From assembly GCA_965153285.1 (NCBI GenBank), contig OZ229110.1: a stretch of DNA of 64,000 nucleotides. One strand, given 5' to 3'. Origin of the DNA: Podarcis tiliguerta. Lineage: Eukaryota. The position numbers were made by a program. This document shows, piece by piece, positions 11,101 to 14,100 of the stretch; positions within the stretch are counted from its first letter, which is position 1, and every line of letters begins with the position of its first letter.

Positions 11101-14100
11101 TTAAAATAAGCAGAGAAATCCATTGAGGTCAGGATATTCTTTTCACATTGGCAGTGGGTCCTCCTTGATTGAGGGCTGCTGAAGGGGCACTGGGAAGGCT
11201 TCCCATTCTATGTTGCTATCTCAGGTGCTAAAGAACCCTGCCCCTGCTCCCATTGTCTCTCATGCCTATCCAAATGACACTGCTGCATGCTGGGGCAGAA
11301 CGCAAAGCCCCTTTGAGCCTCAGGGATGCTGGGCCCCCAGAGTGATGCTGAAGGGGCTGCTTCCTCACCCCTTGCTTTGTTCACACTTCCAGACCTCACT
11401 GACGATGACCTGAAGGCCACGGTGGAGCGCATCCAGCCGGAACAACACGAGATCCTGCGCTCGTCTGCTACGGACATCCCGACTCCACCACGCCCACAGA
11501 GCGCAGGGTTCTCTTTCGCCCACCCTGAGGACGAAGACAAGGAGCTGCATCGGGCCACCCTGGCCTACAGCCTGTCTGAGATGGAGACCGTGGGGCAGCA
11601 GCACCTGGCAGGCGCCCCTCGAGACAGCTCCAGGAAGAGGCGAGGCAGCGCTCGGAGGGCACACAAAAGGACGCCAGGGCCCAGTGAGGAAGTGGCGGGT
11701 GCTCCCTTTCCCATTAGAGCCAGGAGCCCGGGCGCAGGAGACAACACAAAGGAGGACAAGCCAGCAGAAGGCCCAAAGGGCAGAGGCTGCGCTGAAGAGC
11801 CGGAGAGGCAGCAACTCGCTTTGCCGGTGGCCCCTGAGGAGAATGACTCCGTCCTCAGTGACATGCGGTATGTCTTCCCCGACATTATCCCTTCCCACAG
11901 GGAGAGGGAATCCATCATGTGCACTGTCCTCTGAGGCTCACCGACATGCAAGAGAAGAACGCTCCCGTGTCCAATAAAGGTCACAGCCTGGCTGTTGGTC
12001 TCCACAGTGGCATTATTCCCCTGAGAGGGGGGCATGCAGGGTACCCCAGCCCAGGAACCGTCTGGCTCTGCCTGAACTGCCAAGCTCAGAGGTGTGCACT
12101 TATTTGTGCACTTATTTTATTTAAAACCGTTTACGTATCACAATTTTTTTAAAAAAAAATCTCTTAAGAAAGCACTGTATCATGAAAACATTAATGATTT
12201 TACTACGTGCACTTCATTTGCATAATTCAGGCATGGGGAATTAGATCTAGCTTGTAGAATGGATCCTTACTTCCCCCACAGACCAGCTTTGAGCCCTGGG
12301 CTCCTTGGGAATGAAGGGTGGGGTACAAATTCAATAAATAATTGAGTCAGTCATTATGTTGTCAAGTGACCACTTTAAGGCATCCTACCAGCGCCAAATA
12401 ATTTATTCTGATGTCAGAATTTGGTCTTTCTGGGTGCAGCCTAATTGAAAGTGTGTTGTTCAGGAAAACCAGTCAAACCAGAAAAGAGTGGAGGAGCTTC
12501 AAACAGCTGTGGTTGCCTGATAAATGGATCATCTCTAGGGTTCGTCCTTTTTCCCTGCCATATTACTGGCTTGTAAAATTACGAAGAGCTAGAAGGGACC
12601 AAAATCTTGTCTTGTTGAAGAAAGGGCAGCCTTCTACCCTACAGCTCACTTACTATTCAGTGTTCTTAGTGAGGAAGGGAGATGTTCCAGCCTAGCTGAA
12701 AGCTGCACCCTCTAGTCCAGATGCATGGGAGCAGGTTACAAAGATTCGGTAGCAAGGCAGCTGCTTTGCACATGTAGAGATACCAGTCACTTTTCCATCA
12801 CTGCCTGCAGACACTGAGAAAGGCTGTCCCAGCAGATGCATACAAGATGGATGGTGCATCATGTCAGCAAAAGATCAACCTGTTGAACAAGTTGTGGTTA
12901 ACACCTGCTCTGCATCATATCCTTGAGTGAAGATAATGGCACCTGGAAAAGGTGTATGCTAGTAGGGTGAGGAACCTGGAAGCAGTTCTTAGAAGCAGGA
13001 CACCCACACAGATTAATATCCCACTGCATAGGTCCTGTGATGTGGCACTGCTTTTATAAATATATAAACTGTTAGGCTCTCACCACAAAGTTAGGAACAT
13101 GGCACCAAGAACAGACACTGGTCCCTCGCATAGCCATCTTAAGACACCCTGTCATCCCCCCCCCCCATTTCATTTGTTTTTAAAATAAGCAAGTTTCTAT
13201 CCTTTGCAAAAACATATGCACACTTGCCAGGTAATGACACTGTTACAGTCTCTCTACATTGACCACTATTCTCTCTCACACAGAGAAAGACAACAACGTA
13301 TTTGCATATGCTAATTTTTAAAATATAAACCAATTTAGCATTGCTAAGCATTAAGCATAAGCAATTAATGAAAACACAGGTCAGGGTGATTTAAACCTCT
13401 ACCCTGACACTGTCCTGTTGATTTGATGCATAGTCTTACCAATTTTTCTGGATTACTGTAAGGACATGGAATTCCCCATGCATCCAGTAATTCCCATAGC
13501 TGTAAACTTTTCCCTTCTCTTGCAAGGAATTCTATTTGGAATAAGGGAATTCCCCTTAAAAAAAGGAAACCGTTGACAGCTATGGTAATTTCTCATGACT
13601 TTGGGTGTTCACCAGGAAATCACTCCTTTTTGTGGCTTCCATCCACTGGGGGTGAGTAACACACACTGGGGAATTGGCATCAAGGCCTTCTGCCAGGGTG
13701 GTTTCTTCTTTGTGTGTTAACTAGCTAGCAAATGCCTGCCTGTGGTTACTATTACTCATGTGATTTGTGTGTCTAGCACCATCAGTTACAAACAGCACAC
13801 AGGACTAGCTGAGAAGCATATGGAATTGAGGGATAGTGTTATAAAAGGTCTCTTACTCATCATTCATAAGAGGTTTTCCATTCTCTCTCTTTCATCCCCC
13901 ATTGCAAAACAAAGTGTTTCCTTATTCGCCTGCCCCCCTTTTTCTGATCTGTCACATCTCTAGCTCCTTTGCTGCCAAATTCCACCCTTTCATTCTGGGG
14001 CCATGCACCCAGGCCCAAGCCAATTATCAGATTCTTATTGTTGTTTTTGAAGACTAGGTAACCCTGTGACATTACCAAGACCCACCTCTTGAGTCTCAGG

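What the first reader, a model, noticed from the sequence alone, without database searches (positions are those of the whole stretch)
11608..11617. The paralog has lost the short-isoform splice donor and appears to be CaaX-only
Seen: canonical DNAJB2 has GCAG|gtgcga after ...QHRAG (30964/5), which can splice to a GVF* exon at 35445. The homologous site in copy A (...QHLAG) reads GCAG|gcgccc, with GT changed to GC and a non-consensus +3..+6. I saw no DVF/GVF-type terminal exon between 11934 and the next promoter. Established: HSJ1a (soluble) and HSJ1b (prenylated, ER-anchored) arise from this alternative splice. Inference: after duplication, one alternative isoform was fixed as a separate gene.
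Basis: partly seen in the sequence, partly recalled or inferred. Interest (0 to 1): 0.7.

Follow-up and report, generated by a model that had tools for sequence, protein, structure and literature searches.

The report
Lizard DNAJB2 copy keeps one isoform
A second, old copy of the chaperone gene DNAJB2 in lizards appears able to make only the lipid-anchored long form of the protein, while the original copy beside it still encodes that form plus two short ones: a tidy but unsurprising case of a duplicate gene settling on one splice form.

Summary
Window 11608-11617 reads GCAG|GCGCCC, where the neighbouring canonical DNAJB2 (copy B) has GCAG|GTGCGA at 30964/5. The GVF-stop exon at 35445 is real. 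The window is from a lacertid lizard near Podarcis, not human.

Copy A has eight intact coding exons. It ends in CTVL-stop (11932-11934) with AATAAA 38 nt later, and B's promoter follows 3.3 kb on. No counterpart of B's downstream exons lies between. Six of seven inspected squamate orthologs, annotated "DNAJB2-like", are long and end in a CaaX box. No short form was found. In three of them the junction residue rules out a GT at that place.

- B has a third C-terminus, from a missed 55-nt cassette exon (32785-32839, DPDGQAYSV-stop).
- B keeps a conserved CaaX read-through, so the isoforms were not divided between the copies. Only A narrowed.
- A has diverged strongly: long branch, no UIM profile match, a new conserved tail block.

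Simple donor scores alone do not separate the A site from real weak donors. No transcript data could be consulted. New member of a known kind, modest interest.

The parts
4207..4271 (+). Copy A (DNAJB2-like), ATG exon: MVDYYQTLDIPQTASADDIKKA, donor GGC|GTAAGT
5726..5835 (+). Copy A, J-domain exon with WHPDKNP (HPD motif)
6618..6677 (+). Copy A exon (YKRDLYDLYGLEGLIGLST)
7053..7169 (+). Copy A exon (G/F-type region, PDFMFTFRDADEVFREFF)
8508..8612 (+). Copy A exon (EELSPYTDLQGG...SYSSPFQT)
8962..9064 (+). Copy A exon (DFFTTFGPGAELGIGFCSVSTSTKYINGKRITTRR)
10228..10298 (+). Copy A exon ([23 protein letters not shown])
11393..11934 (+). Copy A last coding exon, 179 codons read through to CTVL and stop 11932-11934
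11608..11617 (+). The finding: GCAG|GCGCCC, counterpart of B's alternative donor. Has C at +2 and no consensus match at +4 to +6
11973..11978 (+). AATAAA, 38 nt after copy A's stop codon. Likely poly(A) signal of copy A
15209..15642 (+). Copy B (DNAJB2) first, non-coding exon in the only CpG-island-like stretch. Limits the room for any extra exon of A to about 11935-15200. The 5' limit is approximate
22475..22539 (+). Copy B ATG exon
30728..30964 (+). Copy B last common coding exon up to the alternative donor GCAG|GTGCGA (last base 30964)
30965..31170 (+). Copy B read-through tail (67 codons after the junction Gly) ending [11 protein letters not shown], stop 31168-31170
32785..32839 (+). With the donor at 30964 it gives ...QHRA-DPDGQAYSV, stop 32811-32813. 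Own donor CAG|GTAACC
35445..36700 (+). Copy B terminal exon: GT GTG TTC TGA gives GVF-stop when the cassette is skipped. First AATAAA after B's CaaX stop is at 36679. The 3' limit is approximate

Best explanation
Copy A is an old tandem paralog of DNAJB2, found across squamate reptiles and named 'DNAJB2-like' in public annotation. It encodes only the long, CaaX-ended (HSJ1b/DNAJB2b-like) kind of protein.

Shown:
- Copy A has eight intact coding exons with GT-AG borders, parallel to those of copy B.
- The place of B's alternative donor reads G|GC with no consensus behind it.
- The frame runs on for 107 codons to CTVL-stop, and AATAAA follows 38 nt later.
- The 3.3 kb before B's promoter holds no counterpart of B's cassette exon or GVF exon.
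- Copy B keeps the donor, both downstream exons and a conserved CaaX read-through.

Inferred:
- A's transcript ends just after 11978, so the unspliced form is made constitutively.
- CTVL, with leucine last, is geranylgeranylated and anchors the protein to a membrane, as in HSJ1b.
- The short forms were lost in one of two ways. Either the duplication never included the downstream exons, or they were deleted later. In both cases the donor then decayed without cost, because GGT to GGC is silent in the long frame.
- A has since specialised: its UIMs are weakened, the polybasic stretch is gone, and a new conserved block precedes the CaaX box.
For: - Site and frame.
- Exon map of A against the Podarcis muralis ortholog P0003: eight pieces with no internal stop.
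- All 15 other donors examined in the two genes are GT.
- In A's last exon no GT or GC site reaches 7 of 9 consensus matches, whereas B's alternative donor has 7 of 9.
- AATAAA at 11973. Between B's CaaX stop and 36679 there is no AATAAA or ATTAAA.
- No VF-stop, Y[ST]V-stop or PDGQAYS-like peptide in 11600-15300.
- blastn of 30965-36800 against 11612-15300 gave nothing better than E 0.009, and those hits are on the opposite strand. The best colinear chain scored 93.1, a value reached by 4 of 22 control stretches.
- Orthologs: one search listed 9 proteins, and I inspected 7 of them. All are 385-417 aa. Six end in CaaX (CTVL three times, CTLL, CAIL, CTIL).
- A search for proteins of 98-314 aa matching the A-specific 72 residues before the site gave 5 candidates and 0 hits.
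- Junction residue: Gly in 8 of 8 B-lineage long forms, but in only 4 of 7 A orthologs, plus the window itself. Varanus (gap or Val), Pogona (Ile) and Anolis (Ala/Ser region) cannot carry G|GT there.
- Human DNAJB2b is the unspliced last exon with a geranylgeranyl anchor (PMC10586202, passages).
Against: - No transcript data could be consulted.
- Crude donor measures do not set the site apart from real weak donors. It scores 5/9, the same as B's donor at 26831. Its U1 duplex of -4.5 compares with -3.7 to -13.2 for real donors.
- GC donors do occur and are enriched in alternatively spliced genes (PMC2490688 abstract).
- A GT site in the same phase lies 72 nt downstream (11683, CCA|GTGAGG, 6/9) and could serve a cryptic intron.
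- The Pogona and Anolis orthologs are labelled 'isoform X2', so other isoforms exist that I did not see.
- The protein database shows one representative per 90% cluster, and the listing of cluster members was unavailable. A short form hidden in a cluster is therefore not excluded.
- The Rhineura ortholog does not end in a CaaX box.
- The nucleotides of the site in other squamates could not be read, because no vertebrate genome collection is on hand.
- Prenylation itself is untested.
Confidence: 0.72

Rival explanations
1. The GC site, or the GT site at 11683, is still a weak, regulated donor. Copy A then makes a minor short isoform by splicing to an unrecognised exon between 11935 and 15200, or into copy B's exons.
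For: GC donors exist and are enriched among alternative sites (PMC2490688 abstract). The exonic half CAG|G is intact. Crude scores overlap those of real donors. 11683 is GT, in phase 1, with GTGAGG. 12660-12684 matches the start of B's GVF exon at 19 of 25 bases, behind TTCAG.
Against: That match has E 9.3, and the colinear chain is at control level, reached by 4 of 22 stretches. The frame there runs on without the VF-stop. +2, +4, +5 and +6 are all off consensus. No short ortholog was found. The junction residue is not kept in 3 of 7 orthologs. AATAAA sits right after the stop.
Confidence: 0.12
2. True reciprocal partition: in squamates copy B has in practice given up the CaaX form and makes only the two short forms, while A alone supplies the anchored form.
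For: In one search, 120 of 167 hits were listed. No squamate row named DNAJB2 or DNAJB2-like covers the tail; they cover 53-55% of B's last exon. CaaX-ended forms do appear for a turtle, birds, an alligator, frogs and mammals. Only two 'hypothetical protein' rows (Phrynocephalus, Lerista) include the tail. There is no AATAAA or ATTAAA for 5.5 kb after B's CaaX stop.
Against: B's tail is an open 67-codon frame ending in polybasic plus CSLL. It is 49/66 and 41/63 identical to the agamid and skink tails, with in-frame length differences only, against 64/77 and 70/78 for the constitutive part of the exon. An unused intron would not stay that way. Absence from annotation may only reflect how retained introns are annotated.
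Confidence: 0.15
3. Copy A is a decaying or non-functional duplicate, and the lost donor is just one of its lesions.
For: Long branch of 1.06 changes per column. No UIM profile match. No CpG-island-like promoter in the 4.2 kb before its ATG.
Against: All eight exons are open with GT-AG borders. The J domain with HPD is kept; Pfam DnaJ scores 2.1e-25 on the ortholog. The gene is kept in at least seven squamate genera, with tail identities of 56/98 to 102/107 and a CaaX end in six.
Confidence: 0.03

Closest known systems
Human DNAJB2b (HSJ1b), the long isoform of DNAJB2
   Same: J domain, G/F-type region, the AYSLSEME segment of the second UIM, and a long C-terminal tail ending in a Cys-x-x-Leu box. 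Made by not splicing within the last exon (PMC10586202 passages).
   Different: Copy A is a separate gene, not an isoform. No Pfam UIM match even at E<=10. The Ser of the first UIM position is Ile. There is no polybasic stretch before the box. It has a conserved block, about ENDSVLSDMRYVFPDIIPSxRERES, that the canonical tails lack.
Canonical DNAJB2 of the same window (copy B, 22475-36700)
   Same: Same exon-intron plan and phases, same strand, tandem neighbours.
   Different: B has GT at the alternative donor, a cassette exon (DPDGQAYSV-stop), a GVF-stop terminal exon, a CpG-island promoter and a UIM match. A has none of these.
'dnaJ homolog subfamily B member 2-like' of Podarcis muralis, Lacerta agilis, Zootoca vivipara, Rhineura floridana, Pogona vitticeps, Varanus komodoensis and Anolis carolinensis (names as given by the sources)
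   Same: Orthologs of copy A. They are 45-95% identical over the last exon and 385-417 aa long. Six of seven end in CaaX.
   Different: None in kind: the gene is already annotated. Its restriction to one isoform is not stated in any paper found. Searches 'DNAJB2-like' (0 papers) and DNAJB2+paralog+lizard (1 unrelated paper).
Subfunctionalization of splice forms after gene duplication (Lambert et al. 2015, PMC4417111; abstract and introduction seen)
   Same: An alternatively spliced ancestor, then paralogs with divergent exon structure, one of them with fewer isoforms.
   Different: The defining complementary loss is not seen. B keeps the coding capacity for every form, so this is one-sided narrowing plus divergence.

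Membership tests
DNAJB2 (HSJ1) family of class B J-domain proteins | N-terminal J domain with HPD motif | tested here: met
   WHPDKNP in exon 5726-5835. Pfam DnaJ E 2.1e-25 on the 95%-identical ortholog P0003. The window's own exons were not joined for this.
DNAJB2 (HSJ1) family of class B J-domain proteins | Shared exon-intron structure and closest relatives are DNAJB2 | tested here: met
   Exon-by-exon matches A to B. In the tree, the A clade lies among sauropsid DNAJB2. One clade with squamate DNAJB2 is not rejected (p-AU 0.34).
DNAJB2 (HSJ1) family of class B J-domain proteins | Two ubiquitin-interacting motifs | tested here: not met
   Pfam at E<=10 gives 0 families for A's last exon and only DnaJ/RPT for ortholog P0003. 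B's exon gives UIM at E 0.0016, 18.6 bits, itself below the 21-bit cut-off. AYSLSEME is kept, but the first-UIM Ser column is Ile in A.
DNAJB2 (HSJ1) family of class B J-domain proteins | Alternative donor inside the last coding exon giving a short (a-type) C-terminus | tested here: not met
   G|GC with +4 to +6 off consensus. No downstream target exon. No short ortholog.
CaaX proteins, substrates of geranylgeranyltransferase I | C-terminal Cys, two mostly aliphatic residues, then Leu (rule recalled) | tested here: met
   CTVL-stop in the window. CTVL, CTLL, CAIL and CTIL in 6 of 7 orthologs.
CaaX proteins, substrates of geranylgeranyltransferase I | The Cys is actually prenylated and anchors the protein | not testable with these tools
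   Needs a labelling or mobility assay and localisation of wild type against a Cys-to-Ser form.
Splice-form subfunctionalization after duplication | The unduplicated ancestor made both forms | tested here: met
   Of 20 non-squamate rows, 8 end in GVF and 8 in CaaX, from frogs to mammals.
Splice-form subfunctionalization after duplication | Complementary loss: each paralog keeps a different subset of the forms | tested here: not met
   B keeps the donor, both downstream exons and a conserved CaaX tail. Whether B still expresses the long form is untested.

The most novel reading that the evidence does not exclude
In squamates the membrane-anchored arm of DNAJB2 function has been handed to a dedicated gene. 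That gene has shed ubiquitin binding, exchanged the polybasic stretch for a new conserved targeting or partner-binding block, and runs from a non-CpG, perhaps tissue-restricted, promoter. The canonical gene meanwhile has shifted to two short forms, one of which ends in a PDZ-ligand-like S-x-V. That would be a natural separation-of-function experiment for HSJ1a against HSJ1b.
Probability: 0.2. Interest if true: 0.55.

Novelty: new member of a known kind. Interest (0 to 1): 0.35.

Why it matters
DNAJB2 isoforms a and b differ in location and are both implicated in human neuropathies (PMC10586202). A lineage in which evolution has placed the anchored form in its own gene offers a natural comparison. 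It could show which features the anchored form needs (J domain, CaaX) and which it can lose (UIM match, polybasic stretch). It also adds a well-delimited, old example to the discussion of how duplication and alternative splicing trade off. Here the narrowing is one-sided rather than a reciprocal division. For genome annotation, it flags that the squamate 'DNAJB2-like' gene is a single-isoform gene, and that canonical squamate DNAJB2 has three C-termini.

Tried and rejected
- Homology search for relics of B's downstream exons behind A: blastn with word 7, blastn-short on the two exons, and peptide patterns. It gave only chance-level matches.
- The 19/25 match at 12660-12684 to the start of the GVF exon was considered as a relic. 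I rejected it as unsupported: E 9.3, and the chain score was reached by 4 of 22 controls.
- Consensus count and U1 duplex energy as stand-ins for MaxEntScan overlap with real donors, so they decide nothing alone. My first run had six junction offsets wrong by one base, corrected.
- Dating the duplication by tree: A falls outside all sauropsid DNAJB2 with support 88-91 on a long branch. A squamate-only or lepidosaur-only origin is not rejected (p-AU 0.34 and 0.39), so the age is left open.
- An apparent B counterpart of A's exon 8508-8612 at about 27131 was in the wrong phase. The real B exon is 28044-28124.
- Not attempted: the search of protein representatives, structure prediction and complex prediction, because none would bear on splicing.
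- The joined (spliced) protein of either gene was not built or searched. Only single exons of the window were searched, and full-length database orthologs stood in for the whole proteins.
- Supplements of the papers were closed. They are unlikely to bear on the claims.

Full report
**Source and scope.** The window has no N. Its DNAJB2-type exons are 95% identical to a Podarcis muralis protein. They are 100% identical, over the part covered, to a Podarcis raffonei protein. I take it for a lacertid lizard near Podarcis, not for human. The joined, spliced protein of either gene was never built or searched. Where whole proteins were needed (tree, Pfam, exon mapping), named full-length database orthologs stood in.

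**The observation.** Positions 11608-11617 read GCAG|GCGCCC. In frame this is CAG CAG CAC CTG GCA G|GC GCC CCT, i.e. QQHLAG-AP. Copy B has GCAG|GTGCGA with its last exon base at 30964. At 35445 a strong pyrimidine run and CAG precede GT GTG TTC TGA. In phase 1 this yields G-V-F-stop. Many database DNAJB2 proteins end in ...AGVF: 4 of 13 squamate rows and 8 of 20 other rows. This confirms that the donor and the exon are used in relatives.

**Anatomy of the two genes.** A self-comparison, inspection of borders and mapping of orthologs give parallel exon plans.
- Copy A coding exons: 4207-4271, 5726-5835, 6618-6677, 7053-7169, 8508-8612, 8962-9064, 10228-10298 and 11393-11934.
- Copy B: non-coding exons at about 15209-15642 and about 17184-17270. 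The first lies in the only CpG-island-like stretch.
- Copy B coding exons: 22475-22539, 24330-24439, 25710-25763, 26715-26831, 28044-28124, 28441-28546, 29630-29700 and 30728 onward.
- All constitutive donors are GT.
- Downstream of B, on the minus strand, lie exons with a tyrosine-phosphatase domain (39869-46582). From recalled synteny this is probably PTPRN, which would mark B as the positional ortholog of DNAJB2. That name was not tested.

Copy B has a third C-terminus. A 55-nt cassette exon at 32785-32839 (ACCCTGATGGACAGGCATACTCTGTCTGA..., own donor CAG|GTAACC) joins in phase to base 30964 and gives ...QHRA-DPDGQAYSV-stop. That is the C-terminus of 8 of 13 squamate DNAJB2 rows, including Zootoca, and of the Podarcis raffonei row. 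The stop lies 26 nt before the exon's end. Skipping the cassette gives GVF-stop. Not splicing gives a 67-codon tail after the junction Gly, ending [11 protein letters not shown]. In human, the long form is likewise the unspliced last exon, and the short form's stop lies deep in its 3' UTR (PMC10586202, passages). In keeping with that, B has no AATAAA or ATTAAA between its CaaX stop and 36679.

**Does copy A lack the short forms?** Six lines of evidence agree.
1. The site has C at +2, and C, C, C at +4 to +6 against the consensus A, G, T. [quoted passage not shown]
2. No GT or GC site in A's last exon reaches 7 of 9 consensus matches. B's alternative donor has 7 of 9.
3. A has AATAAA at 11973-11978, 38 nt after its stop, and B's first exon begins 3.3 kb later.
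4. That interval holds no VF-stop, no Y[ST]V-stop and no PDGQAYS-like peptide. It also shows no nucleotide similarity to B's downstream region beyond control level: the best colinear chain scored 93.1, reached by 4 of 22 control stretches.
5. Of the 9 relatives found with A's last exon, I inspected 7. I left out one unnamed row and one 1120-aa fused model. All 7 are 385-417 aa and read through. Six end in CTVL, CTLL, CAIL or CTIL. A search among proteins of 98-314 aa for the A-specific 72 residues before the site found none: 5 candidates, 0 hits.
6. The junction Gly, whose codon must be GGT for the donor, is present in 8 of 8 B-lineage long forms, from frog to mammal. It is present in only 4 of 7 A orthologs. 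Varanus, Pogona and Anolis have residues that cannot hold G|GT there.

**Against, or limiting.**
- There are no transcript data.
- Consensus count (5/9) and U1 duplex energy (-4.5) overlap those of real donors in these genes. B's donor at 26831 also has 5/9, and -3.7. The scores alone prove nothing, and MaxEntScan could not be run.
- GC donors are enriched among alternative sites.
- A GT site in the same phase at 11683 (CCA|GTGAGG, 6/9) could act as a cryptic donor.
- Two orthologs are labelled 'isoform X2'. Cluster members could not be listed, so hidden short forms are not excluded.
- Rhineura's model does not end in CaaX.
- The nucleotides of the site in other species could not be read.

**Was one isoform 'fixed as a separate gene'?** Only in part. 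B has not given up the long form's coding capacity. Its tail is 49/66 identical to that of Phrynocephalus and 41/63 to that of Lerista, with in-frame length differences and a kept polybasic-CaaX end. The constitutive part of the same exon is 64/77 and 70/78 identical. So the pattern is one-sided narrowing of A, not a division of labour.

One observation points the other way. Among the listed hits (120 of 167), no squamate row named DNAJB2 or DNAJB2-like includes the tail, while turtle, bird, alligator, frog and mammal rows do. Only two 'hypothetical protein' rows of squamates have it. This may be an annotation habit for a 4.5-kb retained intron, or a real down-weighting of B's long form. I keep that as the novel reading.

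**How the loss came about is inferred.** In a tandem duplication whose unit ended soon after the CaaX stop, the upstream copy would lack the downstream exons from birth and be followed directly by the second copy's promoter. That is the layout seen. Alternatively, a full duplicate lost them later. Either way, GGT to GGC is silent in the long frame, and the donor would decay freely. Flanking non-coding similarity is long gone, so the two cannot be told apart here.

**Divergence of A.** The A clade sits on a branch of 1.06 changes per column. Its placement outside all sauropsid DNAJB2 has support of only 88-91. A squamate-only or lepidosaur-only origin is not rejected, with p-AU 0.34 and 0.39. 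A's last exon gives no Pfam UIM match even at E<=10, whereas B's gives E 0.0016. In the alignment, the Ser column of the first UIM is Ile. The polybasic stretch is absent, and a block of about 25 residues (...ENDSVLSDMRYVFPDIIPSxRERES) is conserved in 6 of 7 A orthologs before the CaaX box. No CpG-island-like stretch precedes A's ATG within the window.

**Novelty.** The gene is already annotated as 'DNAJB2-like'. I found nothing in print on it. 'DNAJB2-like' returned 0 papers. DNAJB2 + paralog + lizard returned 1 unrelated paper, seen in the listing only. The general phenomenon is well described (PMC4417111, abstract and introduction). I rate it a new member of a known kind, of modest interest.

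Noticed in passing
window 32785-32839: A 55-nt cassette exon of canonical DNAJB2 gives the C-terminus DPDGQAYSV. It ends in S-x-V, which from recall resembles a class I PDZ ligand. It is the end of 8 of 13 squamate rows. A lungfish row ends DLDPDFQAYTG, so the exon may be old.
   Followed up: partly
window 31171-36679: There is no AATAAA or ATTAAA for 5.5 kb after copy B's CaaX stop. If the long form is the unspliced last exon, as in human, its 3' UTR would be about 5.5 kb.
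   Followed up: partly
listing (proteins P0012-P0131): No squamate row named DNAJB2 or DNAJB2-like includes the CaaX tail. Turtle, bird, alligator, frog and mammal rows do. Only two squamate 'hypothetical protein' rows have it.
   Followed up: partly
window 11395-11931: Copy A's last exon has no Pfam UIM match even at E<=10. It carries a conserved block before the CaaX box (about 11830-11915) in place of the polybasic stretch. Its role is unknown.
   Followed up: partly
window 11681-11691: CCA|GTGAGGAA is a GT site in the same phase as the lost donor, 72 nt downstream, with 6 of 9 consensus matches. It is a candidate cryptic donor to include in any RNA-seq check.
   Followed up: no
window 12655-12684: TTCAG followed by TGTTCTTAGTGAGG... 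resembles the start of B's GVF exon at 19 of 25 bases. It is statistically at chance level: E 9.3, and the chain score was reached by 4 of 22 controls.
   Followed up: yes
window 1-4206 and 15001-15800: The only CpG-island-like stretch of 1-22600 is at copy B's first exon. None precedes copy A's ATG within the window, which suggests different promoter types.
   Followed up: partly
window 39869-46582, minus strand: Exons with a protein-tyrosine-phosphatase domain (Pfam E 2.7e-05 to 2.4e-09) lie tail to tail with copy B. This is probably PTPRN by recalled synteny. The name was not tested.
   Followed up: partly
window 10707-10798 / 24834-24979 and 19500-19692 / 27143-27407: Interspersed repeats are shared between the introns and flanks of the two copies. 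One pair translates to [10 protein letters not shown]..., the other to FSRVRLFVTPWT.... From recall these look like a CR1-type LINE end and a squamate SINE.
   Followed up: no
protein P0006 (Rhineura floridana ortholog of copy A): This is the only inspected A ortholog whose model does not end in a CaaX box (it ends ...CTKYLSLC). It could be lineage change or a model error.
   Followed up: no
protein P0014 (Podarcis raffonei) against window 15209-15642: This 458-aa model begins with a translation of what looks like B's GC-rich 5' UTR exon. It is 90.8% identical to the window there, against 96-100% in the coding exons. The N-terminal extension is probably an annotation artefact.
   Followed up: no
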